This document shows positions 1,375 through 53,229 of a stretch of 54,848 nt of DNA, in pieces. Position 1 is the first letter of the stretch. The number at the start of each line of letters is the position of its first letter. The notes under the pieces were generated by a model. That model saw only the letters and a program-made list of their open reading frames with translations, ran no database searches and was not told where the DNA came from. Source of the stretch: an uncultured virus (IMG/VR IMGVR_UViG_3300027847_001048). Lineage: Duplodnaviria; Heunggongvirae; Uroviricota; Caudoviricetes. The stretch is taken from IMG/VR virus record IMGVR_UViG_3300027847_001048, one strand, 5' to 3'. The position numbers were made by a program, and so were the translations under genes.

Positions 1375-2440
1375 TGCTCTGAAATCAATGCTCGATGGCC
1401 TGGGGAAGATGTCCCCAGAGATTCTGGAGATCTTGGACCGTGCAAAAGCGGGGACAATCACCGAAGAAGCTGCGATGGAAGAGATGCTGGCGTTCATGTT
1501 TGCCAATCCCGAACTGGCAAAAGACTTCGAGGCGCTGGCTAATACGGTCACAGCACCCTTGAGGGATGCCCCCATAGCGACCATAGAGCCGCAGTGGTTT
1601 GACAAGATCGAGGAAGCCTTCACAGGCGGGGTTCCTATCTGGGAAGACCGCTCTGCTGAAGGGAAGCTCGCACGCTTCAACCCCTTGTATGAGGCGGCTG
1701 TTACTGAACGGTTGCAGTTTGACGGGGACATCCCTGAACTCCGAACTGGCCCCCTCCCCGAAGGGGCCGATCCTGCGGTGCCTATTGACACCCAGGCACG
1801 TAATCCGACAGCGATTGGCTTGATGTTGGAACAAGCAAGCACCGAGGTGGCTGAAGAGATCCAGGCTCTTTTGCCCGAACACCTCCAACAGACAGAACAG
1901 TTCCTTGAGGCCAAGAGCAAGTGTCTGGACCTGACCGAGCAGCACGTTGCCCTACCACCTGTTCCGCAACCCAAAGGGTACGAACCGGGAGAGCTTCCAG
2001 CTTTGCGCTCTGTGGACGAACCCAGTGGCTCCCAGTTGGCAAAAATCTCCCAAGAACGCCGCCAAGAACTTGTGTGGAAGGCATTGACCACCACACAGGG
2101 GAGAAGGTCTATCCTTCCCATGCTCAAAGCAGTGGTTGAAGAGAAGCTACTGGAGGCAGGTCAACCTATGGTAGCCACAGACGAACGGGTGTTCAAAGGG
2201 GATGTTGTAGCTCACCATGAATGGTCGATGGATATCAGCGGCCCCAAGGCAGGGCAGCCAGATTTCTCTTTCGTGGACGTGGCGATTCAAGCCTTTTCTA
2301 CCTCTTTGCTTCAACAGTTGGGAGAACCCGATTGGGGGCATATGGAACTTGTCCTCGACATCATCCCAATCAACACTGTGAATGTTCGCAGGGTAGGGTG
2401 GGGTGCAAGAGTAAAAACAGCACCCGAGAGTGATGAATGA
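1355..2440 (+). CDS. hypothetical protein
   Basis: 361-aa ORF in the operon. Confidence 0.8.
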   Translation: MTTKINSALKSMLDGLGKMSPEILEILDRAKAGTITEEAAMEEMLAFMFANPELAKDFEALANTVTAPLRDAPIATIEPQWFDKIEEAFTGGVPIWEDRSAEGKLARFNPLYEAAVTERLQFDGDIPELRTGPLPEGADPAVPIDTQARNPTAIGLMLEQASTEVAEEIQALLPEHLQQTEQFLEAKSKCLDLTEQHVALPPVPQPKGYEPGELPALRSVDEPSGSQLAKISQERRQELVWKALTTTQGRRSILPMLKAVVEEKLLEAGQPMVATDERVFKGDVVAHHEWSMDISGPKAGQPDFSFVDVAIQAFSTSLLQQLGEPDWGHMELVLDIIPINTVNVRRVGWGARVKTAPESDE

Positions 2441-2802
2441 GCCGCAACTCCCCGGTTAGTTTGATTACCGAGTTGAGCAACGCAGTCCAATATGCCATGA
2501 CCCATAATCAATGGGTCATCTTGGTCTGCCCGAAGAACTCGAAGGCACTCAATATGTGCAAGGAGATCTTGATTGGGATCGTCCCGAAAGACGTGCCTCA
2601 TTCGGGACGCACCTTCTTGCTCGGGGGTGGGGCTACAATCTCTCTGGCGGTGTCGAGCGATGACGTGTTTGCACCCCCAGGGGAGTACGATGTGCTGTTC
2701 GTAGCCTGGGAGGAAGTCACCGAAAATGAGGTCTTCCTTCACATGGAACGCTGGCGTAAAGACGCTCGAAAGGTTCTAAACTCTTCTTGGGGGTATCGGT
2801 GA
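2437..2802 (+). CDS. hypothetical protein
   Basis: ATGA overlap. Confidence 0.7.
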   Translation: MSRNSPVSLITELSNAVQYAMTHNQWVILVCPKNSKALNMCKEILIGIVPKDVPHSGRTFLLGGGATISLAVSSDDVFAPPGEYDVLFVAWEEVTENEVFLHMERWRKDARKVLNSSWGYR

Positions 2803-2966
2803 ACGACAGGGTGAACACAATCAAGTGGTGGTTCGGTAACATTCTTCATAACTGTATCGCCCATCCATTGATGCCGTTCTTGCCAGAACGCTGGGGAAAT
2901 GCTTTCCATGATTGGACTATCACTCGATTCTGGTCCCCCAACGAGCCCCATGAAGAGACCAAATAG
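2799..2966 (+). CDS. small hypothetical protein (55 aa, HNxIAHP...FHDxT), not in the ORF track
   Basis: GTGA overlap with the upstream stop; fills the operon gap; translated by hand. Confidence 0.6.
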   Translation: MNDRVNTIKWWFGNILHNCIAHPLMPFLPERWGNAFHDWTITRFWSPNEPHEETK

Positions 2967-3366
2967 ACCTGTTTGGACTTTCGTGGTCCGTGGTGGATCT
3001 CTTTTTGCCCTTCAGATGCCCAACCATCCGATTCTGGACCACGACGGAGACCAGACGATCTGGAAGGGGTACGTGACTTCAGATGAGTCTGACTCAATCG
3101 TACAAGCGGTCGAGGAAGCCGGTGCCTCTGTCATTCGGTACATCGAACAGGAAAGCACCGACCAGCATTACGAGCGGCAAGTGATGATGGGAAAGTACCG
3201 TGACCAAACGGTCTTCCAAACTGTCCGGTGCCCCGCCTGCTTCTGGTTTGATCCAATGCTCCCCAGTCAGTGTGGTCTTGACGACTGGGAACCCGTGGTC
3301 ATCAAAGCAGCTTTGACGAATCCCACGGCACCTTCAGATCGAGAGAAGTGCCCTCTCAATAAGTAA
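2950..3366 (+). CDS. hypothetical protein with C-terminal Cys cluster
   Basis: Start moved to ATG 2950 (MKRPNRP) because of the upstream small ORF; CPAC..C..C. Confidence 0.65.
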   Translation: MKRPNRPVWTFVVRGGSLFALQMPNHPILDHDGDQTIWKGYVTSDESDSIVQAVEEAGASVIRYIEQESTDQHYERQVMMGKYRDQTVFQTVRCPACFWFDPMLPSQCGLDDWEPVVIKAALTNPTAPSDREKCPLNK

Positions 3367-3374
3367 GCTGTCGT

Positions 3375-3403
3375 TATCTGATTTATAGCCCTCGTCAGGT
3401 AGA
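3375..3403 (+). promoter_or_regulatory. class II promoter-like motif
   Basis: TA-tctgatt-TAT-agccctcgtcag-GTAGA upstream of ORF 3421. Confidence 0.6.
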
Positions 3404-3420
3404 CATGGGAGAGGTGAGCT

Positions 3421-3792
3421 ATGCGAGCGATCACAAGTCTTGAAGAGCTATCAAAAGCGAGCCTTGCCGAGCGCAAAGAGGCTCACGCTGCTGCGGCTCA
3501 ATCCAAGATTCTTCAGCGGGTAGGCAAGCAAGCCTGGGCCAAGCTCTGTGATGAGTTCGGTGAGCCCGAGATCGCCGTCAAGGTAGGTGCTGTGGTTGCG
3601 ACCCTCAAAGCAGGGGCCGACCAAAAGTTCGGCACCGAAGACGATGAGGTCGTAATCTCCAAGCCTGCCACCCTTCCTTATGCGAAGATGCTCAAGTCCC
3701 AACTGATGGAAATGTGTGAAGCCCGTAGCCTCCCCGTGGTGGGGAACGCTTCGGCATTGATTGAAAGGTTGGAGAAATCCGACCGTGACTAA
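3421..3792 (+). CDS. protein with C-terminal SAP-like DNA-binding motif
   Basis: MLKSQLMEMCEARSLPVVGNASALIERL fits the SAP pattern; GAGGTG RBS. Confidence 0.65.
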   Translation: MRAITSLEELSKASLAERKEAHAAAAQSKILQRVGKQAWAKLCDEFGEPEIAVKVGAVVATLKAGADQKFGTEDDEVVISKPATLPYAKMLKSQLMEMCEARSLPVVGNASALIERLEKSDRD

Positions 3793-3829
3793 CCTTTAGG
3801 TTTATTGAAACACCGAGGGAGAGAAGATA

Positions 3830-4771
3830 ATGAATGTCCTACTGACCAAAATGGTGCGTTTGGCGCACACAACACCGAGCCCTAAAGTTCGCCATAGCAT
3901 CCTTGCGGAGTTGCGTGAGCTTGGGGTTCTTCCCAAGCTGGCAGTTTCCGACAAGGAAGCCATCGCCCAATCGACCCAGGACTTCTACGACTGGGTTTTC
4001 TCGTCCCGACAGGGTTCGCCTCTGTCCCCGGGCGAGGTCGTCAAGATCGCCAAGTCGGTAGGCGTGCCAGAGCTTCCCCCGATGGTCCGTCGCAAAGGCG
4101 ACCGTTACTCATCGGGCGACCAAGTGGCACTCGTTACCCTCCGTGGTAACTCCCGATTCAACGCCAGTGATCCAAAGTGGTCAGGTGAAGAGGGTGGCCC
4201 TGGTGGTCCCGTGATTCAGTTGGAGCCTTTCTTCGGTCAGACCGGACAGGTCGTCAAGACCGATTCCAAGGGCTGCACCGTGAAGTGGGGAAGTCAGATG
4301 GCTTACCTTCCTTGGGGCCAGAAGTCTCGGGGTATCCCCCTCTACAAGCACATGCCCAAGTTCAACTTCGTGAACAAGGGACCGCAGCTTGAGATGATCT
4401 ATATTCGAGGGCAGAAGGGTCTGTCCGAAGAGCAGAAGGTTGTTGCGACCAACTATGTCGGTCGTGCCAAGGGCAGTGAGCCCCGTGCCGAAATGCTCCA
4501 GTATTACACCGGGTACGGCCATGCTCTTCGGCAGGGCAAGAACGGATACTATTTGCAGATGACGCCGCAGCAGCGATACAACGTAGACCCGATGCAAGTA
4601 GACCCGCAGACGAACGGCCCGAATGGAGAAATCCTGGTCAAAGGCGTGCAGTGGCGGAGTTTCAACCCCGCCTCTGGCGAGTGCCTCTACATTGGACGGC
4701 TCGGCTCTCGACCAAGTGGTTGGGAAAAGCAGTTTGCGGCAATCAAAGCACAGGCGCTTCAACAGCCCTAA
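3830..4771 (+). CDS. hypothetical protein with degenerate tag B at the N-terminus
   Basis: KMVRLAHTTPSPKVRHSILAELR...KLA; GGAG RBS. Confidence 0.8.
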   Translation: MNVLLTKMVRLAHTTPSPKVRHSILAELRELGVLPKLAVSDKEAIAQSTQDFYDWVFSSRQGSPLSPGEVVKIAKSVGVPELPPMVRRKGDRYSSGDQVALVTLRGNSRFNASDPKWSGEEGGPGGPVIQLEPFFGQTGQVVKTDSKGCTVKWGSQMAYLPWGQKSRGIPLYKHMPKFNFVNKGPQLEMIYIRGQKGLSEEQKVVATNYVGRAKGSEPRAEMLQYYTGYGHALRQGKNGYYLQMTPQQRYNVDPMQVDPQTNGPNGEILVKGVQWRSFNPASGECLYIGRLGSRPSGWEKQFAAIKAQALQQP

Positions 4772-4821
4772 CCGCTAACGTCAGCCGCCGTGTAGGCATA
4801 GGTTTCGCTACCTGCTGACCA

Positions 4822-4866
4822 GGGGGTCGGGATAGTTTGATGTAACGTCAAACTATCCCGCCCCCC
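4822..4866. terminator. probable bidirectional terminator hairpin
   Basis: CGGGATAGTTTGATG-taa-CGTCAAACTATCCCG stem between convergent genes. Confidence 0.75.
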
Positions 4867-4869
4867 GCT

Positions 4870-5010
4870 TTATTCAGATGCAGGTTCGTAGCCCTTGGGG
4901 TCAGTTGGCTTGTTGGCCTTCTTGACCGGAGCCTTGACCATCGTCTTCTTCTGGGCGGCTTTCACCACTTTCTTTGCTCGCCGCTTCCGCTTCTCTCGGC
5001 CTTTGCCCAT
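4870..5010 (-). CDS. small basic Lys-rich protein (46 aa)
   Basis: MGKGREKRKRRAKK...; start overlaps the exonuclease stop (TAATG). Confidence 0.55.
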   Translation of the reverse strand: MGKGREKRKRRAKKVVKAAQKKTMVKAPVKKANKPTDPKGYEPASE

Positions 5011-5825
5011 TAGTTGTGCCGTCCTCGTAATGCAGTGTTGTTGCGCTCGTTGCCAATGCGCTCGGCGCACACGTTGTAAAGCTCCCTTGGGTTGTAATCC
5101 AAGCGAGGGTTCTCGTCACGGATCTGGTTCTGACAGTCCATGATATCGCTGATGAAGCGGTCGTTGGGTTGCACGTAGAGATAATACCAACCTACGGAGC
5201 ACCCAACAAAGAGCGTAAGGGCAGTGAGGGGTCCGATGATTCGGTCCCAGGCTATGCCACGTTGACGGAGCTTGTATTGCATCTTCCACACCCACCGCTT
5301 CAACGGGGTCGCCCGAATGAGCTTGTGATAAACATACCGAGTGTCCCTGACATCTTGCATCGCCGTGTGGGCGTTCTCGGCTGACATCCCGAAAAACTCT
5401 CGGATGGTGTCGAGCTTGCGGTTTTTGATGCCGCAGGGGGTCAGGTGTTCATGCGCCAGCGTCACCGTGTCAACGACATGGTGCGAGAGGCGGGGCTCGA
5501 TGCCAGCCTCTTTGAGCATGGCTTCGATGAAGCGAATGTCGAACTTCGGGTTATGCCCGATGATGGTGCCGCTGCGTAGCTTCTCGGCCACGATGGGGGC
5601 GACCTCATCGAGATCTGGTGCATCGTCCCAGGCTTCGGGGTTGGCAGCGTAGCCGTTGATCTCCAACGCCTTGGGGTGCGCTTCCTCGATGCGACGGGGC
5701 TTGACCTTCGTGGACCATTCCTCGATCTCCCCCGAGGGGGTCTCGGTGAGGATGGCGATCTCGATCACCTCATGGGTGCCCGCTTTGAGGCCAGTCGTTT
5801 CGGTGTCAATGATAAGCAGATTCAT
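5010..5825 (-). CDS. DEDDh 3'-5' exonuclease (DnaQ/RNase T family) with C-terminal transmembrane segment
   Basis: IIDTETTGL, GHNPKFD, VVDT and HTAMQD motifs; hydrophobic stretch near the C-terminus. Confidence 0.9.
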   Translation of the reverse strand: MNLLIIDTETTGLKAGTHEVIEIAILTETPSGEIEEWSTKVKPRRIEEAHPKALEINGYAANPEAWDDAPDLDEVAPIVAEKLRSGTIIGHNPKFDIRFIEAMLKEAGIEPRLSHHVVDTVTLAHEHLTPCGIKNRKLDTIREFFGMSAENAHTAMQDVRDTRYVYHKLIRATPLKRWVWKMQYKLRQRGIAWDRIIGPLTALTLFVGCSVGWYYLYVQPNDRFISDIMDCQNQIRDENPRLDYNPRELYNVCAERIGNERNNTALRGRHN

Positions 5826-5844
5826 ACTTCCCTCCCTTCACAAT

Positions 5845-5871
5845 GCTTACCCCCGACAATCGGAAAGTAAC
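5845..5871 (-). promoter_or_regulatory. class I promoter-like motif
   Basis: GTTACTTT..GGTAAGC upstream of the exonuclease RBS. Confidence 0.75.
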
Positions 5872-5893
5872 CGCCTTTACTTGCTACTTGAGA

Positions 5894-6397
5894 CTACCCC
5901 CAGGATATCTCAAAGCTGTTTTCCTGGGCGTAGACCGCCAACTCATTCAGGGCTTCCAGGCGGCGAAGGGTCTGGGCGTCGGTGTTGCCGCCCTCGATGA
6001 CACCGCAGCCACGGCGCTCGATGGTCGAGATACCATCACGCTCGACCACGGCAGTACCGAGGTGACCACCGGGAAGCTCATAGCCGTCCCGAAGGGCGCT
6101 GCTACGGTCGCTATTGCGAGCCACGAAGAGACGCTGACGCATCGTAGCGGCATCACAGGAACCACAGAGGTACTCCGCATCCATGCCAAGCAGTTGAAGG
6201 ACTGCACGGGCGTTGGTGTTGGCGAAGTTGGGGTCGGGAGACTCCGACTCCATGCGAGTGCCGTCGCAGAAAGGGGTACAACAACCACCAAGCTCGTTCT
6301 CACGGGCTTCCTCGCCGACCTCATCACGCTCCTGCACACAGTACGGGCAGGACACTTTGTTTTGAGGGGCATCGGGGCACCAGAAACTCACGCTCAT
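5894..6397 (-). CDS. hypothetical protein
   Basis: AAGGAG RBS; downstream of a class I motif. Confidence 0.75.
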   Translation of the reverse strand: MSVSFWCPDAPQNKVSCPYCVQERDEVGEEARENELGGCCTPFCDGTRMESESPDPNFANTNARAVLQLLGMDAEYLCGSCDAATMRQRLFVARNSDRSSALRDGYELPGGHLGTAVVERDGISTIERRGCGVIEGGNTDAQTLRRLEALNELAVYAQENSFEISWG

Positions 6398-6490
6398 CGG
6401 TCTCTCCTTGATATGACGTAGCTGTTAGATCGAACGCAGCTACTTCGCCCTGCGGGACAGTCTCCTGGGAGCACTTCCCGCCCTCACAAC

Positions 6491-6517
6491 GCCTACCTTG
6501 ACGGATCGAAAGGTAAC
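6491..6517 (-). promoter_or_regulatory. class I promoter-like motif
   Basis: GTTACCTT..GGTAGGC; identical to the copy at 53498-53524. Confidence 0.75.
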
Positions 6518-6553
6518 GAGAAAAGTTTACGCAGTAAGAAAGTATCATTCCCC

Positions 6554-6580
6554 GTTACTTTCCGTCAGCCGGGGGTAGAC
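6554..6580 (+). promoter_or_regulatory. class I promoter-like motif
   Basis: GTTACTTT..GGTAGAC. Confidence 0.75.
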
Positions 6581-6622
6581 GTTGTGTAAGACGAGAGAAC
6601 ACAGACTGAAAGAGAGGACGTG

Positions 6623-6781
6623 ATGGACGAGGACGAGTGGGCACGGAGAGTCTGTTTGGGCACCGAGGGTGCAGAGGTCGCCACTTGGGGCGGCATGGAC
6701 GAGGACGAGGCCGACGAGGGCTTTGACTTCGGAGAGGCCGATACCTGCACGGGGTTCCTGGGCGACGTAGACGATATGTAG
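6623..6781 (+). CDS. small acidic protein (52 aa), not in the ORF track
   Basis: MDEDEWARRVC...; GAGGA RBS; lies between two class I motifs. Confidence 0.55.
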   Translation: MDEDEWARRVCLGTEGAEVATWGGMDEDEADEGFDFGEADTCTGFLGDVDDM

Positions 6782-6795
6782 CCCCACGTTTTTCA

Positions 6796-6822
6796 GTTAC
6801 TTTTTGACCCGTGAGGGTAGGC
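6796..6822 (+). promoter_or_regulatory. class I promoter-like motif (leaderless gene follows)
   Basis: GTTACTTT..GGTAGGC, with ATG 5 nt downstream. Confidence 0.7.
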
Positions 6823-6827
6823 AGTAC

Positions 6828-6989
6828 ATGAGCAAGGACGCACACAAACGACACATCGAGGGCTTTCGAGGCCAGGGGCATGTCTGCTCCTGCTGCCGGG
6901 AGGCCACCAAGAAGGTTGCGACCCGCCTTGCTCGACACCGCCTCAAGGCTGCTGACCGCAAGGCTTTCGCCAATCTGGAGACCACATGA
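6828..6989 (+). CDS. small basic CxCC protein
   Basis: MSKDAHKRH..VCSCCR; ATGA overlap with the next ORF. Confidence 0.6.
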   Translation: MSKDAHKRHIEGFRGQGHVCSCCREATKKVATRLARHRLKAADRKAFANLETT

Positions 6990-7255
6990 GATTCACGAAG
7001 ACCCCAGGTGCCACGATGCTACAAAGCGTCGAAGACGAGTGCATGGGGCTCGTCACGGATCAGCGTATGGTCCCTGATGACGTAACGCTCCCGCCAGAAC
7101 TTGGTGGAGGCATCGTGCGTGTGCTGGAAGGCTTTACGGCCCCGTGCCCCGTGTGTCAGACCTCTGCTTGGCACTTGTCCTTGGAAGATTCACTTGGCGT
7201 AGCCGAGTGTGCTTGCCAGGGCTTTCTCTGGTATCGACGGAGAGAGGCTGGATAA
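6986..7255 (+). CDS. hypothetical Zn-ribbon-like protein
   Basis: CPVC..CAC; GGAG RBS. Confidence 0.65.
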   Translation: MRFTKTPGATMLQSVEDECMGLVTDQRMVPDDVTLPPELGGGIVRVLEGFTAPCPVCQTSAWHLSLEDSLGVAECACQGFLWYRRREAG

Positions 7256-7271
7256 AAGATCAAGACACCCG

Positions 7272-7298
7272 GTTACTTTCCAAAGTCGCAGGGTAAGC
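7272..7298 (+). promoter_or_regulatory. class I promoter-like motif upstream of the large ncRNA
   Basis: GTTACTTT..GGTAAGC. Confidence 0.75.
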
Positions 7299-7303
7299 AT
7301 TGT

Positions 7304-8010
7304 GGAACGAGAGGCTGCAACCCAGTTGTTGTCTCTACTGCTCTCTGAAAATCAGGTTTTGCAACTCTTGGTGCTTGCACCAAGATAAGCGAATGACCCT
7401 TGCTGTCGGGTCACAAAACCTTCGTACCCTTGCCGGGTCGTTGGCTCCTACGGGAGATAGTCAGAACCCTGTCCGAGAAGGGGGTGTTCACGCACCCTGC
7501 CGCTTGGCTGTGAAGGGGGATGAGTTATGGGGCGTGGAAACCCCGAGAATCATCCAGTGACCGGAGGCATGAGCCGACATTCCACTGTCGGAATACTGCC
7601 GAAGGTATCCTCGGACTTGCTGGTTCATCGGGGAAACGGTTGGAGGGCAATAACCAAAACGAAAGTCTTGGGCAGGGGTCGTACCCCAGAATCGGACTGC
7701 TGAATGCAGAAGCCTCTCTTGTCGCTGGAGCAATCTGGTGGCAGTCCCGAAAGGGGGTAGCTGGCGATTTTCCCAAGAGATCAAAAGTTATCGTGTCGAG
7801 GGCTGGGGAAGGTACACCCTACGTCCTGAAGCACAGAATGTAGGCAGCAGTAATACGTGCTGTTCCGTGGTAGGAGACTGCCGAGAACAGGGAGGAACGC
7901 CGTGAACCGCTTTACTGGCGGGTGTTCACACTCCTAACCCGAGAGGGGACAGGGCCAAAAGCCTTGGAGGTCACGGTTGGAGACAGGCGCATGTGTGCTT
8001 GTTTGTCTCT
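7304..8010 (+). ncRNA. large ornate ncRNA, ROOL-like (GOLLD/ROOL class)
   Basis: No credible ORF; bounded by promoter and terminator; long-range helix 7309-7319/7705-7718; CUUG, UACG, GAAA, GCAA and GAGA tetraloop hairpins; blocks resemble ROOL as I recall it (not searched). Confidence 0.75.
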
Positions 8011-8013
8011 TTT

Positions 8014-8052
8014 GGGCGGGTCATCCCTAAAGGGTGGCCCGCCCTCTTTTTT
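8014..8052 (+). terminator. Rho-independent terminator
   Basis: GGGCGGGTCATCC-ctaaa-GGGTGGCCCGCCC followed by TCTTTTTT. Confidence 0.85.
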
Positions 8053-8208
8053 GCCTGCGACTAAACTTCCCCCCATATTCGGCAGTCCGAAGAAAGCCGG
8101 TGAGTATCCAGCCTATTGAATCCGTATATATAATAGGACGATGGTACACCGATAGACTTATTTCGGATGTGTTCGATGGTACTCCACCCTGACAGGAGGC
8201 CCAGCATC

Positions 8209-8397
8209 ATGTGTCCTTACGCCCAAGTACCAATCACTCTTATCATTGAAGAGGAACGCCGTAAGCAACGGGAACGCCAAGAGCGTCCGTCTCTTCAACT
8301 ACCGATCCCTTCAAGAGCACCCTGCTACGGAGAACCTCCCCAGGAAGAACCCGAAGAGCCTCGACGGGGGGTGATCATCATCGATCTCTCTATCTAA
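8209..8397 (+). CDS. small protein of a type common in Myxococcota (..IIEEERR..RPSLQLP..RGVIIIDL)
   Basis: AGGAGG RBS before ATG 8209; pattern recognised from memory. Confidence 0.65.
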   Translation: MCPYAQVPITLIIEEERRKQRERQERPSLQLPIPSRAPCYGEPPQEEPEEPRRGVIIIDLSI

Positions 8398-8512
8398 TAT
8401 CAGAGAGGTGCCAAAAGCTGTCCGTTAGTGTCAGATTTAGGGGACACTAACTGTCAGGAGATTTTTCGGATCATCGCTGACGCTCACGACGCTTCGATCC
8501 AAAAATAAACTG

Positions 8513-8842
8513 TCATAAGTTTCTTCTGACATGCTCTACATCAAGATGGGGTGCCCGTATCGGAACAACTGGTGGGGGAAAGACCCAACCCTTGTTCGTG
8601 ACCTCGGTTACCGTGATGTAGTAGTTCGACTCTGCCCCTGGATACTCCGCATTGACGATAATGCGTCTCACCCGTTCCGCATCAGAACGATGTAGGTATC
8701 CGTACTGGATACTCCGCTCTCCTGCGAACAAGCAGTAACTATCACCAAGGCGTTTACCCTGGTGTTGTTCTGCCACGTCATCGGCCCACTGATCCAAGGT
8801 CGGGTTTCGGTCCCCGACATAACCAACCATGAAGTGATACAT
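8513..8842 (-). CDS. hypothetical protein
   Basis: 109-aa ORF downstream of the amidase. Confidence 0.65.
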   Translation of the reverse strand: MYHFMVGYVGDRNPTLDQWADDVAEQHQGKRLGDSYCLFAGERSIQYGYLHRSDAERVRRIIVNAEYPGAESNYYITVTEVTNKGWVFPPPVVPIRAPHLDVEHVRRNL

Positions 8843-8852
8843 TGTTCTCTGG

Positions 8853-9926
8853 TTAGGTCACGTTTTTGCCATTGTTCAACCGGCTGAACACTTCTCGGCA
8901 AGTGAAGGTTGTCCACTCACCGTTCTCAACCATACCCGTATCGATCTGTAACTTACGCAAAGCTGCGTCTGACATACGACCCCAATCGCCATCCACGCCA
9001 TCGCCGTTCGGTCCAGACGTACCGAGCGAGTAGCCAAGATCCACCAGGGCTTGCTGGCGAGCCTTCTGGAAGTGGAAGGGAGTCCAGATGTCTTCGATGC
9101 TGTCGTCTTCATACACAGCACGCAGGTATTCGGCGAAGGGGAACCCCATCACGTCCTGCTTGTAGCCAGGGCATAGATCGTGGTGCCCATGCCAATGCTC
9201 TGGGAGGATGTGTGGGTGCGTCTCGATGACGTGTTGGCCGAGCTTGACGAGCATTGTCATCTGCTCATCGGGCCAAGGCTGAATCATCATACGCTGTCTG
9301 CCGTTGGTGGCATCCACAGGAATCCAATCCTTTGGATCAGAGCCATCAAACCCAACTTGAAGGTTCTTTCGAGCGTAGCCGATGTCTACGATCTCAATGC
9401 CGAGGGTCGTTCGGGCACCACTCCAACTGCTGTTTTTACGCTTTCCACCCAGGTAGTCGAGGGTCTGTCCCGCCCCGGCGTGCCAGGAACGGTTCTTCAT
9501 CGTCACGTATTGATCGATGCCTTCCTCGAACGACCGACCTACCGCCCAATGGCAGCTTGCGGCACCCTTTCGTAGAGCGTTGGCCCCACCCAGGATCTTG
9601 GTACAGAGAGCCAAGTCCTTGGTTGCGGTCCAATGCAACGTGACGCCTGCGGGCTTCTTATCCGTAACGGAAGTCCAACCTCGGCTCACCGCTTGTCCCT
9701 TCGCTAAAGGGATTAGATGATCTTCCCAGTCCAGTTCCCATTCCTTTATCTCAATCGGCTTTGAGGGAATGGTAGGGGGGTCTTCCTCAACGCCGGGTCC
9801 AGGCATTTGCCAATAGGTGTCCGATGCCTTCTGTTGAGGGGTATCGTTGATAGCATCTTCGACCGCTTTGCGTGCTTCCGCAGGCAGGAAGAGCTTGAGC
9901 AACCACATGATGAGCTTCTGAAACAT
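8853..9926 (-). CDS. N-acetylmuramoyl-L-alanine amidase (Amidase_2) with C-terminal peptidoglycan-binding domain; probable endolysin
   Basis: VTLHWTA, CHWAV, SWHAG, GIEI, GHHDL..KQD; C-terminal VDGDWG..S..AL..LQ; AAGGAG RBS before ATG 9926. Confidence 0.85.
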   Translation of the reverse strand: MFQKLIMWLLKLFLPAEARKAVEDAINDTPQQKASDTYWQMPGPGVEEDPPTIPSKPIEIKEWELDWEDHLIPLAKGQAVSRGWTSVTDKKPAGVTLHWTATKDLALCTKILGGANALRKGAASCHWAVGRSFEEGIDQYVTMKNRSWHAGAGQTLDYLGGKRKNSSWSGARTTLGIEIVDIGYARKNLQVGFDGSDPKDWIPVDATNGRQRMMIQPWPDEQMTMLVKLGQHVIETHPHILPEHWHGHHDLCPGYKQDVMGFPFAEYLRAVYEDDSIEDIWTPFHFQKARQQALVDLGYSLGTSGPNGDGVDGDWGRMSDAALRKLQIDTGMVENGEWTTFTCREVFSRLNNGKNVT

Positions 9927-9960
9927 ACTGGTCTCCTTCATTTGACCAAACTACCAGGAC

Positions 9961-9990
9961 TCTACCCATGATTTGCCTATAAGCGGCCCA
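9961..9990 (-). promoter_or_regulatory. class II promoter-like motif (variant)
   Basis: TG-N7-TAT-N13-GTAGA upstream of the amidase. Confidence 0.45.
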
Positions 9991-10038
9991 TGCCGAGCGA
10001 GAGACGCTCTGATACTTCAATGTGACCAAGGAGACTTC

Positions 10039-10245
10039 ATGTCATTCAAGACCCTTTGTGCAACGATCCTTTCAGTTTTCTTCCTGGCCTTCGCTGCCGG
10101 ATGTAGTGGTGACAAAGCCGATGATACGGGCGACACCGCATCGGTCGAGGACACCGCTGAAGCGGGTGACACCAGTGACACCAGCGATTCGGGTGACACG
10201 GGTGACACCAGCGAGCCTGGGGATGCCCCCGACTCTGGCGAATAG
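10039..10245 (+). CDS. small lipoprotein with DT(G/S) acidic repeats
   Basis: Signal peptide with lipobox FAAG-C; AAGGAG RBS. Confidence 0.75.
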   Translation: MSFKTLCATILSVFFLAFAAGCSGDKADDTGDTASVEDTAEAGDTSDTSDSGDTGDTSEPGDAPDSGE

Positions 10246-10276
10246 CTCCGAGCTTCTGCTCACGATGCTAACTCTG

Positions 10277-10310
10277 GAAGCCACCCCCATCTACGGGGTG
10301 GCTTCTTTCG
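10277..10310 (+). terminator. Rho-independent terminator
   Basis: GAAGCCACCCC-catctac-GGGGTGGCTTC-TTT. Confidence 0.75.
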
Positions 10311-10311
10311 T

Positions 10312-10340
10312 TAGTGCTTCAATAACTCTGCTTTGGGTGA
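10312..10340 (+). promoter_or_regulatory. class II promoter-like motif (variant)
   Basis: TA-N7-AAT-N12-GGTGA directly after the terminator. Confidence 0.4.
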
Positions 10341-10371
10341 GGACTGCCCACTCCCCTTGAAGGATGACGAT

Positions 10372-13300
10372 ATGAGCCTACGAGCCCAAACGATTCGACT
10401 TGCTTATGAAAACCCCGATCTTCGAGCGACCTTGCTCCCACTCTTGAAGAGAAAGGCGGGTCTGGAAGTAATGATGGCCGAGCTTCTTGCGGAGTCCAAA
10501 GTACCGAAGACTCCCAAAGGTATGCCTTCTGGAAAAGAGCTTGAGAAGGCTCTGGGTGATTTCGCAGAACACGTAGATAAGAAGGATGGGGGCAAGGAAG
10601 AGAAGAAGGCACGTCGGCTGGCGTTCCTCCGTCGTCTCGCTATGGAGCATCCCAGCGAAAAGGCGATGAAGGAGTACCTCAAAGAGCATCCTGGGGCCGA
10701 TGCGAAGAAGCACACCGTTTCCGAAAGCGGTGGCGGTGCTGGTGCTGGTCCCGACTACACAGATGCAAAGGCCGTGGCGGCTCACGCAGAGAAACTTACG
10801 GCAGACGCATCAAAGAAGTTCGAGGCAGGGACAGCTACGGCTCAAGACATCTTCGATATGTCGGTCTTCGCTGCAATCTCCCAGTTCGAGCAGATGAGCA
10901 AGATGGAGAAGGAGAAGGCTTCGGGCACCTATCGCCAACGGCTCGTCAACTTCACCCAGCAGGTTGGTCTCAATACTTTCGCAGAGATCGCAGAAGTGCT
11001 GGACTCCGTGAAGGGTATGGGCATGGAAGAACTGGAGAAGAGCGGGATGGACCTGGAGGGGATGGGGGTCATCTCTCAAGCCATGTCGGTCATGGTTGCT
11101 CACTACGGCACAGACGAGTTGCAGGTTCCTTCTGGATACTCCGTAGAGTCACCCGGTTCTCGCATGAAGGGTGGCAAACCCGCCGAGAAGAAAGAAGAGA
11201 AGTCCGAGAAGAAGGAAAAGAAAGAGAAGCCGAAGGCCAAGCCCTCTGGGAAGGCCAAGGGCCAAGCGGCTGGCGACATCCTCGCTACTCTCATCGGCCA
11301 TGAGAAGTTCGATGACATCGACGAGGCTGACGTGAAAGCTCTCGTTGAGAGCGGCCAATCAATCGATGACTGGCTTGGAGATATTGCGAAGGGGATCATC
11401 GAAAAGAACCCCCATATGGAGAAAAAGGTAGCGGACAACTTTGGAGAGATACGGGAGGCTATGGGCCTTCCCAAGACTCCCGAGAAAGAAGAGAAGTCCG
11501 AGAAGAAGCAGAAGGGCGGTCCCAAGAAGGAGAAGTCCAAGGCTGAACTCATCAAGGACTACAAGGAAGCCATCCAGAAGTCGGATATGGCCCCCGAGGA
11601 CAAGAAGAAGGCTCTGGAACAGGCCAAGAAGCCGAACTTCGATCCAGAAGCCGCACTCGGCGCTATGGGCGATGACGACGAAGAGGGGGGCAAGCAGGCT
11701 TCCCTGCGTGGCCGAGCCATCAAGCTCGCCCACCGACATCCCGAGCTACGGGCTGATCTACTGCGGTTGCTGACAGCCGCCGACATCGACGTGGGGAGTC
11801 CCCGCCATCTGGACGCTCTTCAGAATGGAATCAAGGATGTCAAAAGCCAGATCAAGCGGCAAGACCAGATGGTCAAAGTCCTGTCGGACATCGCCTCCCC
11901 CTTGGGGCCGAAGGCTGTCGAGATCTATGTCAGGAAGGAAAAGGCGCACTTGGATGGCAGGAAGCAACTTCTGAAGGCTCTTGAAGCGGAGTTGAAGGAC
12001 GCCAAGTCCAAGAAGAAGGCTGACTTCGATCCAGAGAACGTCGGTGCCGAATCAGATGGTCCTCTCAAGAGCGAGAGCGATGAAGCCGCCTACATGGAGC
12101 CTAACTTCTCTGCCCAGATCTTCCGTGAGCTATCCGACCGCCAAGAGGCTGGTCAGCTTTCGGACGGTAAAGGCATCACCGAACAACGTGACCCACAGCC
12201 GGGTCGCAAGGGCATTACCGCTATGAACCTCCGCACTGCCGCAATCAAGCTGGCTTATGAGAATCCCGAGCTTCGAGCCAAGATCCTCCCACTGCTGAAG
12301 ACTCTTGATAAGTCTGCGGGGCGCAACCCTTTTCCCGATCTGAAACGATACTTTCGTGGAGCAGTTCAAGCGGCCTTCCCCGGTCCTTATGACCCCAAGG
12401 CCCGGGATGTTATTGGGGGCAAGGACACCCTTTCCTATTGGACCTCCATGTTTGGGGACTCGCCTGCCGGGTGGTCCAAGTACACAGACATCGCCATCAT
12501 CGCAGGTGATGACGGTGAATCCCTCGATATGGTTTACAGGCAAAACGCCAGCCGCCCCGACGCTAAAGAGGGTTGGTACTGGGGTGCCGGAGCGCCTGGG
12601 ATTGGGCCGTGGCTTGATAGCCGAGGCAAACGGCTTGCTTCGTTCGCCAAGCTCGCCCATGAGCCTTACTTGAAGCGTGAAGGTCTTACCAAGTCCAAGG
12701 TTGGTGCTGGTGAGGCACATATGTTCTACCTCATCGACGCAGAGAAGAATAACTCCAAGTTCTACGAGGTCTTGGTGGTCGAGAACCCCCAAGGCTCTGG
12801 CTACTACGATGTCATGCGACGTTGGGGTGCCCTGACGGACCGTGGTGCTGGTGGTCGTGTTGACGGCGAGAAGTACGATACGGACCCCCGATTCTCTGGG
12901 CTGTCCTACCGTGAAGCCATCAAGAACGCTGCTGGTCACGCCAAGAAGCGGCTCGGCAAGAAGCCTCCGTACATCAGTGCCTATGGGCCGAAGCACATCA
13001 ACCCGACCACAGGTAAGAAGCTCCCGATGGGGCAGTACCCAATCGGTCTGGTCCGTGGTAACGCTGGTTTCGGTTGGGGAAGCCAAGCGGTGACTTCGTG
13101 CCTCCCTGGTCTACGACAACTCCAAGAATCGATCCAACGTGCCATCTCCGAGGCAGTGGACCGAGACACAGTTGATCTAATCAACGCTCTTCAAGAAGCA
13201 AATAGTGTCGTCGGCCATCAGATTGCACGGGCTGACAGCACAATGGCCGGGAAGATCCAGAAGCTCATCCGTGGCCCGATGATGCGAGCCAAGGGTGCTC

Positions 13301-13395
13301 CCCGATTCCTGCCTGACGCAGACGGGACCAAGATCACCAAGGAGCTTCGTACTCTGGATCGTTATCTCACGAAGCAAATGGCCTACTGTGGGTGA
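10372..13395 (+). CDS. large multi-module protein with three copies of tag B and a C-terminal WGR domain; putative virion internal polyprotein
   Basis: IRLAYENPDLR, IKLAHRHPELR, IKLAYENPELR; K/E-rich linkers; YLIDAEKNNSKFYEV..V.RRWG (WGR). Confidence 0.8.
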   Translation: MSLRAQTIRLAYENPDLRATLLPLLKRKAGLEVMMAELLAESKVPKTPKGMPSGKELEKALGDFAEHVDKKDGGKEEKKARRLAFLRRLAMEHPSEKAMKEYLKEHPGADAKKHTVSESGGGAGAGPDYTDAKAVAAHAEKLTADASKKFEAGTATAQDIFDMSVFAAISQFEQMSKMEKEKASGTYRQRLVNFTQQVGLNTFAEIAEVLDSVKGMGMEELEKSGMDLEGMGVISQAMSVMVAHYGTDELQVPSGYSVESPGSRMKGGKPAEKKEEKSEKKEKKEKPKAKPSGKAKGQAAGDILATLIGHEKFDDIDEADVKALVESGQSIDDWLGDIAKGIIEKNPHMEKKVADNFGEIREAMGLPKTPEKEEKSEKKQKGGPKKEKSKAELIKDYKEAIQKSDMAPEDKKKALEQAKKPNFDPEAALGAMGDDDEEGGKQASLRGRAIKLAHRHPELRADLLRLLTAADIDVGSPRHLDALQNGIKDVKSQIKRQDQMVKVLSDIASPLGPKAVEIYVRKEKAHLDGRKQLLKALEAELKDAKSKKKADFDPENVGAESDGPLKSESDEAAYMEPNFSAQIFRELSDRQEAGQLSDGKGITEQRDPQPGRKGITAMNLRTAAIKLAYENPELRAKILPLLKTLDKSAGRNPFPDLKRYFRGAVQAAFPGPYDPKARDVIGGKDTLSYWTSMFGDSPAGWSKYTDIAIIAGDDGESLDMVYRQNASRPDAKEGWYWGAGAPGIGPWLDSRGKRLASFAKLAHEPYLKREGLTKSKVGAGEAHMFYLIDAEKNNSKFYEVLVVENPQGSGYYDVMRRWGALTDRGAGGRVDGEKYDTDPRFSGLSYREAIKNAAGHAKKRLGKKPPYISAYGPKHINPTTGKKLPMGQYPIGLVRGNAGFGWGSQAVTSCLPGLRQLQESIQRAISEAVDRDTVDLINALQEANSVVGHQIARADSTMAGKIQKLIRGPMMRAKGAPRFLPDADGTKITKELRTLDRYLTKQMAYCG

Positions 13396-14396
13396 TGCCC
13401 AATGGAACGATCATGCCTCACACATTCCTCAAGCGATTAGCGATCCGACATGCGGAGAAGACTTCGTGCCTTGCGCTTGCCGGTGAGTTTGGTGGGGACG
13501 TTTGCCTGGGAAAGAACCGGGATCGTAACTATGTCCCACCGCTTTCAGTCAACCACCTTGAGGTAGACGGCACCGAGGTCTGTATTCTTCTTGATCACTT
13601 CACCCAATGGGTCGAAGGGATGAACGAGCATGGGGTTGGATTCGTAAACTCAACCCTCGACGGACGTGCTGACGAGAGCGAAAAGGACAGGATCGAGGAA
13701 GACAGGCACATCCCTGTCGGACCACGACTACTACGAGCACTCGCTCTAAAGACTCCCCGAGAGATGGCCGAGCAGATTGGCAACGTCATTGAGTTGGAGG
13801 GTCAATCGTTCGTAGGCAACGCCGAGGAAATCTATTGGATTGAGAAGTCCCCCTGGACTCCCGCACAGATCATTCGACTCGATCCCAAAAACTACGAAGT
13901 CCGGTCTAACAATGGCGTGATCGATCCCAATGCCGGGTACACGGATGGCCGCCCGGGTGCTGGATCAGTCGCCCGGGGTGAGTTGGCCTGGACGGCGCTC
14001 CGAGAAGTGGATGACCCCCTGGAGATCATGCCAGCGTTAGCGCACCGCCCCCACGGTCAGTACAGCGACTACAACGCCTTTAGGGACGCCCCAACGGCGA
14101 AGACGTTGCGAACCCAGTCCCAGATGGTCTGCAACCTGACCCAGAAGGAGATTCTTCTCTACCTCTGTCCCGGCAAGATTGATTGGCATGGGGTGAGAAA
14201 CCAACTCGGGCGTGAACCCAAGATCAAGGTGCGTGTCTTCGAGTACGACGAGACAGACCCGATCAACCCTTCGTCGAGCCTCGTTTCAGACAACTACCTC
14301 AAGGGGAAGACCTCCAAGGGTTTGACAGCTTCCGATGATGACATCGTTGAAGCCCTCATGGCCCATAGATTTATCTCCCGATATTCCAAGGCGTAG
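13395..14396 (+). CDS. Ntn-hydrolase (Cys nucleophile, peptidase C45/C59-like) with tagged propeptide
   Basis: KTS|CLALAG..GKNRD..EGMNEHGV..N; TGATG overlap with the upstream gene. Confidence 0.75.
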   Translation: MPNGTIMPHTFLKRLAIRHAEKTSCLALAGEFGGDVCLGKNRDRNYVPPLSVNHLEVDGTEVCILLDHFTQWVEGMNEHGVGFVNSTLDGRADESEKDRIEEDRHIPVGPRLLRALALKTPREMAEQIGNVIELEGQSFVGNAEEIYWIEKSPWTPAQIIRLDPKNYEVRSNNGVIDPNAGYTDGRPGAGSVARGELAWTALREVDDPLEIMPALAHRPHGQYSDYNAFRDAPTAKTLRTQSQMVCNLTQKEILLYLCPGKIDWHGVRNQLGREPKIKVRVFEYDETDPINPSSSLVSDNYLKGKTSKGLTASDDDIVEALMAHRFISRYSKA

Positions 14397-17300: not shown

Positions 17301-17797
17301 CCGAGGTCTTGTCTGGCATCGCTCCGACTGACTTCCGTAAGCTCAAGGCCACACAGACTGTGTTGGATAACCTTCGAGCCGAGCAGACAGAGCTATACGC
17401 CCGTATCCGTCAGTACGTTGACGACAAGGCAGATGACCTCAAATCGAAAGTCACGGCAGAGATCGTTGAGACTCTCCAACGGGCCTACGAAAACGCACAG
17501 CAGGCCCTCTCCCATAAGAACGTGTCGGAGACCATTGAGTCTTACGTCAACCCAGAGATCATCTTCCGCTTCTTGAGTCAGGGTCGGCTTGAAGACACCT
17601 TGAAGAAATCAATCCTCCAGGGTCAGTTGGCGTTGGAGTTCAACCCGCAGATCTTCATCGACCGAGCGACCGGCAAATCGGCTGCGTCTGCCTTGGTTGG
17701 GAGAGAAGCCTTTGAGATCATGGCGAAGACTCTCCAAGACCTGCTTGATGAGCTTGAAGAGACGATGAAGGAAGAGGGACAGGCTACGCCGAGGTAG
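14399..17797 (+). CDS. polyvalent protein: ADP-ribosyltransferase-like + SH3/KOW-like + GNAT-like + type IB DNA topoisomerase
   Basis: ART: YRG..SSW..DEVIV; GNAT: EYHGQRIGLNMY..SAQAKRVW; TopIB catalytic set: GIRPG, FPGKK, DFRK, LSH, SYVNP. Confidence 0.85.
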   Translation: MMKEPSHELLAVRIATRHGERRVAREIKAKDSSVQIKKYVRFSDLLSKTTKHILHMVKGGQDYLGTVVTGSSLSLDIKRRGSSSEVARAFKLEIANTLKDVGHRDGMYEPVMEADKPDNKAQQAVEGLLHPIWGIGPDWEDTAEVEEDLEQQDFHKLLEKQLRSWKGSSNGLLVTNHGYWPTFHAMVREAVKRKYGGRVRAYRGIRGKQALGILEGAPVKVRRVSSWAIDKEAAMAYRSGVSTTVGSDYWVVVEAMFKPKDIALAPVILPDYQDPNILMELGQDVQHSGDEVIVMSSGKINAKIVSKSRKKRAWDKAAKAFNLNVGDPVLYGKYKNKRGVIVGFGEDEKKNPLVYVDPVPKGLKHTKAIQLFRLWYDSSKDEEAEAAEQAKTFSSQRVAGRYAAWKLGPNQPLGEWDGTKVKYRTQMGSNKAGVVVYYSQKKIGKIWAMTEYSTEIAKGKLHCQSDVDKLTAKHPQVVTPNGAYLGKDENGDPIRVDIPRVWAAVGSVVMDEYHGQRIGLNMYQAIMLEIFKKIGPFIFISDGCGSTGSTSAQAKRVWESLSRSMPSSGICLAVLKPPRLRVDKTSHIAPKDIHEEADSVGVTWDNDPGFMAWTKKLTGKEHLDDMNQQQLSTVMKALGRRSASNYKQAEVNQLKKDRKAQEKHVKAAARAFKALLKEVEPLAQAAKAEFPGRDKQSRQRRGRSMMKKIKTDARVAAYLDQWVGTTNHQRETYSWRNAVLYQIRDVSVGGGSVRDALIEVGKQAFKGFQAMAMAESQGAVREALPEEIRAYLPKNIVVEVDDTGLITRMADRFENQRNTLEQKIKVSHDLVRRYNVIAKSVKADLRSSNEITKLAAIITSIVMETGIRPGKEGNGVVKTIDGNDVHIETFGAVTLGPEHVRFVRDNFVDLEFPGKKNTTNLASVTNGEVIGILKEYVNTAIKGKSKYIFVTSKGVRFEVKHLQKYFRSEVLSGIAPTDFRKLKATQTVLDNLRAEQTELYARIRQYVDDKADDLKSKVTAEIVETLQRAYENAQQALSHKNVSETIESYVNPEIIFRFLSQGRLEDTLKKSILQGQLALEFNPQIFIDRATGKSAASALVGREAFEIMAKTLQDLLDELEETMKEEGQATPR

Positions 17798-24429: not shown

Positions 24430-24888
24430 TTGACTGTTGCGCTGAATATGGAAGTCCACAAGTACATCCCGTCTCGCCTGTACGGATTCGTAAAGGGCGA
24501 GGACGGGAGAGAAGTGTTCTTTCACCTTGGCGTGTTCAAGCCCGGGGCCTTCCCTACCGACCCACCCCCACCTCCTATATTGGGGGAACCCGTACTCGTT
24601 GAGGTGGGCACTCAAGACTCACCCGACAACAGGCCGGGAAAAGCCCCCAGAGCACTATCGGTTGTACGAGTCCAAGAACCTGTCCAGTTCGTTGGGATCG
24701 TTGAGACATTCGACACACACCGAGGCTACGGTTTCATTGTGGGTGAGGATGGTATTTCTTACCATCTCCACAATAGCGAGGTTCTCGATGGTCGGACCCC
24801 GTTAGCAGGGGACCGGGTACGGTTCTATGCAGGCACTCGTCAGGGCCGTCCCCGTGCGTGCCACGTCAATGTGAGGGGTGAGAAATGA
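24430..24888 (+). CDS. tandem cold-shock domain protein
   Basis: Two CSD repeats: YGFV..EVFFH and GYGFI..YHLHNS. Confidence 0.85.
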   Translation: MTVALNMEVHKYIPSRLYGFVKGEDGREVFFHLGVFKPGAFPTDPPPPPILGEPVLVEVGTQDSPDNRPGKAPRALSVVRVQEPVQFVGIVETFDTHRGYGFIVGEDGISYHLHNSEVLDGRTPLAGDRVRFYAGTRQGRPRACHVNVRGEK

Positions 24889-46405: not shown

Positions 46406-46435
46406 CTGTTCCTCAATCCATACGCCATTCGAGCA

Positions 46436-46464: not shown

Positions 46465-46493
46465 CCGTTACCCCCTCCGTGCTTCGGAGAGTC

Positions 46494-53227: not shown

Positions 53228-53229
53228 CG

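What the first reader, a model, noticed from the sequence alone, without database searches (positions are those of the whole stretch)
7272..8052. ~700-nt ornate ncRNA with its own promoter and terminator (ROOL-like) in a GC-rich phage
The ORF-free unit starts right after a class I motif and ends at a strong terminator. The 5' GAGAGGCUGCA (7309-7319) can pair with UGCA-gaa-GCCUCUC (7705-7718), closing ~390 nt. Hairpins: UCUUGGUG-CUUG-CACCAAGA (7366-7385), CUCC-UACG-GGAG (7445-7456), GGAUGA/UCAUCC (7517/7550), CCGACA/UGUCGG (7574-7591), GCUGGA-GCAA-UCUGGU (7724-7739), CCC-GAAA-GGG (7746-7755), GGUAG-GAGA-CUGCC (7869-7882) and CCC-GAGA-GGG (7938-7947). Blocks such as AUAGUCAG, GCUUGGCUG, AAUCAUCCAGU and AACCAAAACGAAAGUC resemble ROOL from memory. 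ROOL is known mainly from low-GC Bacillota, Fusobacteria and rumen phages and is usually shorter, so this may be an extended variant in a new host range, apparently under early-type control.
Basis: partly seen in the sequence, partly recalled or inferred. Interest (0 to 1): 0.8.

Follow-up and report, generated by a model that had tools for sequence, protein, structure and literature searches.

The report
New large folded jumbo-phage RNA
This gene-free stretch of an uncultured marine jumbo phage encodes a roughly 615-base, intricately folded RNA of an uncatalogued family; it carries a ribosomal-RNA-type transcription signal and a self-pairing loop hinting that copies join into larger RNA-only particles, but its job is unproven.

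Summary
Real, but not ROOL. The region is a stand-alone non-coding RNA gene: promoter motif (7272), boxA-like element (7340), conserved core 7395-8010, terminator (8014-8052). I aligned 29 distinct sequences (53-85% identical to the window), mostly from large aquatic phage records, one copy per record. A 187-pair, 39-helix model with 8 pseudoknots is 94% paired, and 130 pairs show compensatory change. Three seawater metatranscriptomes hold it at contig depth 63-340 versus 0-7 for flanking genes (unstranded, a hint only). Rfam ROOL and GOLLD models miss it while positive controls score 130 and 197 bits; my models miss true ROOL and GOLLD. Two added features: an rRNA-type boxA in 28 of 28 copies with upstream sequence, and a loop palindrome switching GUAC/AGCU/GGCC (28 of 29), the signature of intermolecular kissing in OLE and GOLLD. 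Best reading: an abundant RNA, transcribed with Nus-factor help, that self-assembles like GOLLD/ROOL; function inferred only. The scan noted a similar RNA before on another genome (e1-5799341, e1-5799346).

The parts
7272..7300 (+). Promoter-like motif (GTTACTTT-N11-GGGTA), clade-specific; start site inferred near 7304
   Evidence: 9 copies vs 0 expected, 13 with a relaxed pattern. Start inferred from the copy at 6796, where an ATG follows at +32; not measured.
7309..7337 (+). Leader hairpin just before boxA; not conserved.
   Evidence: Folds locally; long-range alternative not conserved
7340..7350 (+). boxA-like element (rRNA/Nus-factor type); the window copy has 2 mismatches to the published consensus
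   Evidence: Present in 28 of 28 sequences with upstream DNA vs 43 of 3355 background 80-nt windows (my pattern was tuned on these data); 0-2 mismatches to the consensus of PMC5725501, 5 perfect
7366..7385 (+). Clade-specific 5' hairpin with CUUG loop
   Evidence: Only 6 of 29 rows have letters here; RNA contigs of two studies begin at 7365 and 7367
7395..8010 (+). Conserved core of the structured RNA, about 615 nt, 39 helices in my model
   Evidence: Alignment A4; 187 pairs, 94.2% of cells paired, 130 pairs with change on both sides, slid controls 40-46%
7403..7464 (+). Pseudoknot 1: loop 7403-07 with 7460-64
   Evidence: 3 of 5 pairs with both-side change, 94.5% paired
7488..7513 (+). Pseudoknot 2: loop 7488-91 with 7510-13
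   Evidence: 2 of 4 pairs with both-side change, 92.2% paired
7499..7648 (+). Pseudoknot 3: 7499-7501 with 7646-48
   Evidence: 3 of 3 pairs with both-side change, in few sequences
7534..7585 (+). Kissing loops 4: 7534-39 with 7580-85
   Evidence: 3 of 6 pairs with both-side change, 90.2% paired
7620..7695 (+). Pseudoknot 5: loop 7620-26 with 7689-95
   Evidence: 4 of 7 pairs with both-side change, 100% paired
7667..7777 (+). Pseudoknot 6: 7667-72 with loop 7772-77
   Evidence: 3 of 6 pairs with both-side change, 94.8% paired
7713..7895 (+).
   Evidence: 99.3% paired; one pair switches U-A 13 / C-G 12 / G-C 1; three pairs never vary
7812..7815 (+). Self-complementary loop tetramer at a hairpin tip; candidate symmetric intermolecular kissing loop
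   Evidence: Palindromic in 28 of 29 (GUAC 24, AGCU 2, GGCC 2); the only site reaching 90% among 599 positions scanned (3 adjacent positions); 3 label changes on the tree, two of them to another palindrome
7924..7998 (+). Kissing loops 8: 7924-29 with the loop of the 3' hairpin, 7993-98
   Evidence: 3 of 6 pairs with both-side change; two pairs pass E<=0.05 against a tree-based null
8014..8052 (+). Intrinsic terminator
   Evidence: 13-bp stem plus U run; kept in the close clade; in four homologues the 3' hairpin itself is followed by a U run
6986..7255 (+). Upstream 89-aa ORF, not a conserved partner
   Evidence: No Pfam or PHROG match; no neighbour family shared by more than 6 of 29 loci

Best explanation
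A stand-alone gene for an abundant, stable, non-coding RNA of a new family carried by large aquatic phages, working like GOLLD and ROOL. Step 1 (shown by covariation): the ~615-nt core folds into an ornate structure with about 30 nested helices and 8 pseudoknots. Step 2 (hinted): it is made at high level as its own transcript or behind tRNAs. Step 3 (inferred): the boxA in its leader recruits host NusB/NusE/NusA/NusG/SuhB as on rRNA operons, protecting the long untranslated transcript from Rho and aiding co-transcriptional folding; the leader is then dispensable. Step 4 (inferred): copies pair through the palindromic loop at 7812-15, and probably some of the 8 loop-loop contacts form between chains, giving an RNA-only dimer or cage. 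Step 5 (guess): the particle serves the phage's translation kit (tRNAs, tmRNA), as a protected store or as a decoy for host anti-phage RNases.
For: Structure. No conserved reading frame. No conserved protein partner. One copy in 29 of 29 viral records, including complete 204-kb and 293-kb genomes, terminase in 3 of 5 tested. RNA contigs over the element at depth 340, 224 and 63 vs 0-7 on flanks, DNA run flat at 0-7. boxA 28 of 28; Nus role from PMC5725501 passages. Palindrome switching matches the criterion used for OLE L9.3 and GOLLD L21a in PMC12286853, where one covariation-predicted pseudoknot each in ROOL and GOLLD proved intermolecular. tRNA or tmRNA within about 5 kb in 13 of 29 loci, directly upstream in 6.
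Against: No experiment shows oligomers, Nus binding or function. The palindrome rests on only two switches between palindromes, and one homologue has UGCU. Only 12 pairs pass E<=0.05 and 17 pass E<=1 against my tree null; pseudoknots 1-7 do not pass singly. The structure was derived from the same alignment it was counted on. Contig depth cannot rank genes or give strand, and the runs were found with this stretch. This window has no tRNA in 54.8 kb and 16 of 29 loci have none nearby. The window's boxA is among the weakest copies. The raiA RNA shows that large ornate RNAs can be monomers. No boxA-like match was found upstream of the one ROOL and one GOLLD control.
Confidence: 0.55

Rival explanations
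1. A ribozyme, for example one that processes phage tRNA precursors in place of or beside host RNase P, or has an unknown chemistry.
For: 113 of 549 well-filled core columns are invariant, far more than the 10 highly conserved positions reported for ROOL (PMC5737381); dense pseudoknotted centre; tRNA-linked context. A purine-rich joint before helix 7899/7977 loosely recalls the RNase P core (recalled, not from a call).
Against: No Rfam ribozyme, RNase P or intron family at E<=10 on the region or E<=5 on six homologous loci; no 5'-3' closing helix; the invariance is inflated because homologues were collected with exact motifs and are few.
Confidence: 0.2
2. A monomer or dimer scaffold that binds host proteins or RNA polymerase (OLE-, raiA- or 6S-like), acting as a sponge during infection.
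For: High apparent abundance; no phage-coded partner kept nearby, so any partner would be a host factor; one palindromic loop needs only a dimer, as in OLE.
Against: No partner gene or binding motif identified; many loop-loop contacts and GNRA loops fit an RNA-only assembly equally well.
Confidence: 0.15
3. A highly diverged ROOL or GOLLD.
For: Similar length (ROOL averages 581 nt), phage location and tRNA linkage.
Against: RF03087: 0 of 29 carrier records, control 130.4 bits. RF02032: 0 of 47 records at E<=0.1, control 196.7 bits. My models R1 and R2 score at most 6 bits on true ROOL and GOLLD loci with filters off. Topologies differ from the printed Rfam consensus structures. The Rfam GOLLD model covers only 416 positions, and one control sequence per family was used.
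Confidence: 0.07
4. A cis-acting leader, intron remnant, guide or retron RNA, or coding sequence.
For: boxA is an antitermination signal, and some copies lie inside tRNA arrays.
Against: A terminator follows at once; downstream genes vary and no reverse transcriptase or nuclease is kept; stops in all six frames in 29 of 29; no intron family hit.
Confidence: 0.03

Closest known systems
GOLLD RNA (Rfam RF02032)
   Same: Large ornate phage RNA, aquatic metagenomes, near tRNAs, many kissing loops; a palindrome-switching loop marks an inter-chain bridge (PMC12286853).
   Different: No model match either way; shorter (about 615 vs 700-833 nt); 5' and 3' halves are both conserved and cross-linked by pseudoknots 3, 5 and 6, with no long variable linker; upstream boxA.
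ROOL RNA (Rfam RF03087)
   Same: About 600 nt, phage-borne, near tRNAs, abundant, no known protein partner.
   Different: No model match either way; no 5'-3' closing stem; 8 proposed pseudoknots vs 3 reported; no disordered linker; higher sequence invariance in this sample.
OLE RNA
   Same: About 600 nt; symmetric kissing loop that switches among palindromes (GGCC, GAUC, AGCU in OLE; GUAC, AGCU, GGCC here).
   Different: OLE is cellular in Bacillota and has protein partners; no Rfam match here and no conserved partner gene.
rRNA-operon boxA / Nus-factor system
   Same: Upstream element matches the published boxA consensus with 0-2 mismatches in 28 of 28.
   Different: Here it precedes a phage structured RNA, not rRNA or a lambda-type early operon; Nus binding not tested.

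Membership tests
ROOL (RF03087) | Score above the Rfam gathering cut-off (99.1 bits) | tested here: not met
   No hit at E<=10 on 7100-8200; 0 of 29 carrier records at E<=0.1, control plasmid 130.4 bits
ROOL (RF03087) | 5'-3' closing stem and ROOL junction layout with an unstructured linker | tested here: not met
ROOL (RF03087) | Length near 580 nt, phage location, often near tRNAs | tested here: met
   Core 581-644 nt in full-length copies; 13 of 29 loci with tRNA or tmRNA
ROOL (RF03087) | Forms hexamer or octamer cages | not testable with these tools
   Needs mass photometry or cryo-EM
GOLLD (RF02032) | Conserved 3' domain scoring above 150 bits | tested here: not met
   0 of 47 records at E<=0.1; at E<=10 two chance hits far from the RNA; control 196.7 bits
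GOLLD (RF02032) | Reciprocal similarity to a true GOLLD locus | tested here: not met
   R1 best 2.6 bits on L177; R2 none at E<=0.5 on L177, filters off
GOLLD (RF02032) | Variable 5' domain separable from a conserved 3' domain, 700-830 nt | tested here: not met
   Both halves conserved (A5, A6) and linked by pseudoknots
Large ornate homo-oligomeric RNAs (works like) | Extensive covariation-supported structure with several pseudoknots | tested here: met
Large ornate homo-oligomeric RNAs (works like) | Symmetric kissing loop shown by palindrome switching | tested here: inconclusive
   28 of 29 palindromic, unique among 599 positions, but only two switches between palindromes
Large ornate homo-oligomeric RNAs (works like) | High abundance as a discrete transcript | tested here: inconclusive
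   RNA contig depth 63-340 vs 0-7 on flanks in 3 of 3 RNA runs laid; contigs give no strand, ends or level
RNase P RNA, group I and II introns, tmRNA, OLE, HEARO, raiA and other Rfam families | Rfam model match | tested here: not met
   0 hits at gathering in the window; only chance hits at E<=10 and E<=5 on six homologous loci; none over the RNA in six more homologous loci at gathering
RT- or nuclease-associated RNAs (retron, group II, OMEGA) | Conserved adjacent protein gene | tested here: not met
   Largest shared neighbour family 6 of 29 loci
boxA/Nus-controlled transcripts | boxA consensus in the untranslated leader | tested here: met
   28 of 28, 0-2 mismatches
boxA/Nus-controlled transcripts | NusB/NusE binding and effect on transcription or folding | not testable with these tools
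   Needs binding or in vitro transcription assays

The most novel reading that the evidence does not exclude
A third, independently evolved class of phage RNA nanocage, or a new large ribozyme, that jumbo phages transcribe through the host's rRNA antitermination and folding machinery, treating it like a ribosomal RNA and making it by far the best-covered RNA of its genomic region in the seawater samples examined.
Probability: 0.35. Interest if true: 0.9.

Novelty: new variant of a known kind. Interest (0 to 1): 0.72.

Why it matters
Bacterial and phage RNAs this large and complex are rare, and PMC12286853 leaves open whether cage formation is common among them. A new family with unrelated sequence and topology, a ready covariation model and one sharply testable inter-chain contact makes that question directly testable. 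The conserved boxA would extend Nus-factor control from rRNA and lambdoid operons to a phage structural RNA and suggests how such RNAs escape Rho and fold. Its presence in complete jumbo-phage genomes beside tRNAs and tmRNA, and in environmental RNA, points to an unexplored RNA function in infection.

Tried and rejected
No whole genome is held for the window. blastn of the window copy and of L160 against cultured phages, and of the window copy against plasmids: no match, so no cultured model system. First exact motif in viral contigs: 0 hits; in metagenome contigs 3 of 49 loci were homologous, one identical to the window. Neighbour proteins led nowhere: amidase 0 loci, exonuclease 1 locus without the RNA; 4 of 8 hits were known copies, 4 chance. 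Cellular genomes: 0 of 36 pattern hits homologous; only one exact pattern was scanned, so prophage copies are not excluded. The scans are not exhaustive: the record behind L079 was not listed. Of 39 hits, 28 were homologues and 11 not. Dropped before alignment as identical or redundant: L031, L155/L085, L157, L159 and repeat fetches of the same records. The 3' terminal stem was left out of the counted structure because A4 aligns it poorly. Folding z-scores were rejected as evidence. A shared motif with a second RNA group (L123 and others) is coincidence (nhmmer E>=0.7; no hit for the whole group with R2, or for L123 and L132 with R1). Host inference from Lon was inconclusive: nearest named relatives at 53-56% identity were labelled Myxococcota (5), Alphaproteobacteria (3), Pseudomonadota (2) among 120 listed. 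Early ROOL and GOLLD searches lacked a control and were repeated with one; two M. chimaera plasmids held no GOLLD. Skips seen in RNA contigs come from diverged homologues, not shown splicing. No structure or complex prediction was run, since no protein is implicated.

Full report
Observation. The motif occurs 9 times with fixed spacing against 0 expected, mostly before short genes; in the copy at 6796 an ATG follows 32 bases after the motif start, from which I infer a start near 7304 for this unit. A 13-bp GC-rich stem with a U run ends it at 8014-8052. Folding energy alone is not convincing: z -3.5 for the whole unit, -1.85 for the core, and -2.86 for a coding control. Rfam gives nothing at gathering in the window and only five chance hits at E<=10 on the region.

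Setting. No genome is held. The window encodes an exonuclease, amidase, topoisomerase IB, UvrD, Lon, a cold-shock protein and a tRNA nucleotidyltransferase and no tRNA. The public runs that hold the stretch are labelled marine or seawater metagenome (20 holders, 7 of them RNA). Its four closest viral relatives are fragments whose stated completeness implies genomes of about 420-450 kb (my arithmetic). More distant carriers include complete 204-kb and 293-kb genomes with terminal repeats, and 3 of 5 tested have a terminase. The host is not established.

Homologues. Stepwise motif scans confirmed by nhmmer gave 29 viral records and 2 further metagenome contigs. After removing identical copies, alignment A4 has 29 distinct sequences including the window, 53-85% identical to it, mean pairwise 65%. 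A covariance model of the 3' half finds exactly one copy in 29 of 29 viral records (the model was built from most of them). None of 36 pattern hits in cellular genomes was homologous. Flanking GC runs from 38% to 60%, and no neighbouring protein family is shared by more than 6 of 29 loci. All 29 sequences have stops in all six frames of the core. tRNA or tmRNA genes lie within the fetched flanks of 13 of 29 loci, directly upstream in 6.

Structure. RNAalifold on A4 predicts 126 pairs, 94 with a compensatory change. Adding helices found by a column scan gives 187 pairs in 39 helices, 8 of them pseudoknots or kissing loops: 94.2% of 5303 cells pair, 130 pairs change on both sides, 0 of 500 shuffles reach this, and slid controls pair at 40-46%. 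The model was derived from the same alignment, so these figures lean towards it. Against my own tree-based null on a separate MAFFT alignment (639 columns, 20 simulations), 12 pairs pass E<=0.05 and 17 pass E<=1, all at least 80% canonical, including two pairs of kissing contact 8; pseudoknots 1-7 do not pass singly. The conserved unit is 7395-8010, about 615 nt; 113 of 549 well-filled columns are invariant, a figure inflated by motif-based collection.

First, a boxA-like element precedes the core in 28 of 28 sequences with upstream DNA, against 43 of 3355 background windows (pattern tuned after seeing the data). The copies differ from the consensus in PMC5725501 by 0-2 positions, five are perfect, and the window's copy at 7340 has two mismatches. 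That paper states that Nus factors block Rho termination and chiefly promote rRNA folding; a role here is inference. No match was seen upstream of my single ROOL and GOLLD controls. Second, the hairpin-tip loop at 7812-15 is self-complementary in 28 of 29 sequences and switches among GUAC, AGCU and GGCC; it is the only site of 599 scanned to reach 90%. The tree needs three label changes, two to another palindrome and one to the non-palindromic UGCU. PMC12286853 used the same kind of switching as support for inter-chain kissing loops in OLE and GOLLD.

Expression. In 3 of 3 metatranscriptomes laid on 2001-14000 (3 of the 7 RNA holders), contigs cover the element at depth 340 (7227-7977), 224 (7365-7998) and 63 (7367-7885), while other parts of the stretch have 0-7; the one DNA run is flat at 0-7 per bin. 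Contigs of two studies start at 7365/7367 and end at 7998. Diverged relatives are present in the same RNA runs. The tool warns that contig depth cannot rank genes, that strand and ends are not shown, and that runs were chosen with this stretch, so this is a hint of a discrete abundant RNA, not a measurement.

Comparison with known families. ROOL: 0 of 29 carrier records match RF03087 while the L. salivarius plasmid copy scores 130.4 bits. GOLLD: 0 of 47 records at E<=0.1 while a mycobacterial plasmid copy scores 196.7 bits. My two half-models reach at most 6 bits on those control loci with filters off. The layout differs too: no closing 5'-3' stem and no linker as in the ROOL consensus, and no variable 5' domain as described for GOLLD. 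So it is not a member of either family, but it shares their size, phage location, tRNA linkage, abundance and loop-loop architecture, and most likely works like them.

Mechanism and rivals. I commit to an abundant RNA, transcribed with Nus help, that self-assembles into an RNA-only dimer or cage serving the phage's translation kit (0.55). The fold is shown by covariation; abundance is hinted; Nus use and assembly are inferred; the biological role is a guess. Rivals are a ribozyme (0.2), a host-protein sponge (0.15), a diverged ROOL or GOLLD (0.07), and a cis element, intron or coding sequence (0.03). My separate odds: real structured ncRNA about 0.97; new family about 0.9.

Literature seen. 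PMC12286853: parts 1-3 of 9 of the text, part 2 of supplement 1, and a motif search of 5 supplements with no match, one file unreadable. Passages only: PMC5737381 (supplement unreadable), PMC12990946, PMC5643018, PMC6582537, PMC5725501, PMC12803027, PMC12776560, bioRxiv 10.64898/2026.09.22.753630, PMC10690425 (its candidates are at most 151 nt; motif search of 6 supplements found nothing but files 1, 2 and 4 were not searched, so fragments of this RNA could be listed there). Ten searches (listings and abstract starts) showed no description of this family. Most subscription papers and bioRxiv supplements are outside the library. Earlier notes of this scan describe a 720-775-nt RNA of huge phages on another genome sharing 12 of 180 and 18 of 122 short words; this is probably the same family, I could not align to it, and it is not independent support.

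Verdict. A genuine, uncatalogued large ornate RNA family of jumbo phages, not ROOL; new variant of a known kind; interest 0.72.

Noticed in passing
L123, L132, L134, L139, L144, L146, L153, around the match at 5001-5045 (L134: 1119-1163): A separate, strongly conserved ~190-nt non-coding element with a long closing helix and several hairpins in GC-rich phage or prophage records; no Rfam hit at gathering and unrelated to this RNA.
   Followed up: partly
window 53204-53819: Cluster of five copies of the same promoter motif on both strands; the minus-strand copy at 53439 is followed by a boxA-like variant and no nearby start codon, so it may head another non-coding transcript.
   Followed up: no
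window 6796-6989: Promoter copy followed 32 bases later by an ATG with no room for a ribosome-binding site: a likely leaderless mRNA for a 53-aa protein.
   Followed up: partly
window 24430-24888, 35813-38203, 43946-46495, 14399-17797: Phage carries a cold-shock domain protein, a full Lon protease, an 849-aa tRNA nucleotidyltransferase-like protein and a topoisomerase IB; the first and third are RNA-handling proteins that could act on this RNA.
   Followed up: no
runs X10 record 5, X12 record 13, X13 record 22: Diverged members of the family are present in the same seawater RNA samples at depth 13-82.
   Followed up: partly
L133, L143, L147, L149, L152, L158, 0.6-2 kb downstream of the RNA: A shared small protein that looks like an FKBP-type peptidyl-prolyl isomerase (label recalled, not from a library search) follows the RNA in 6 of 29 loci.
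   Followed up: no
L124, L156, L160: Phage-encoded tmRNA within 5 kb of the RNA in three loci.
   Followed up: no
window 10333-13395: 1020-aa protein with internal repeats and a WGR domain match, no PHROG match.
   Followed up: no
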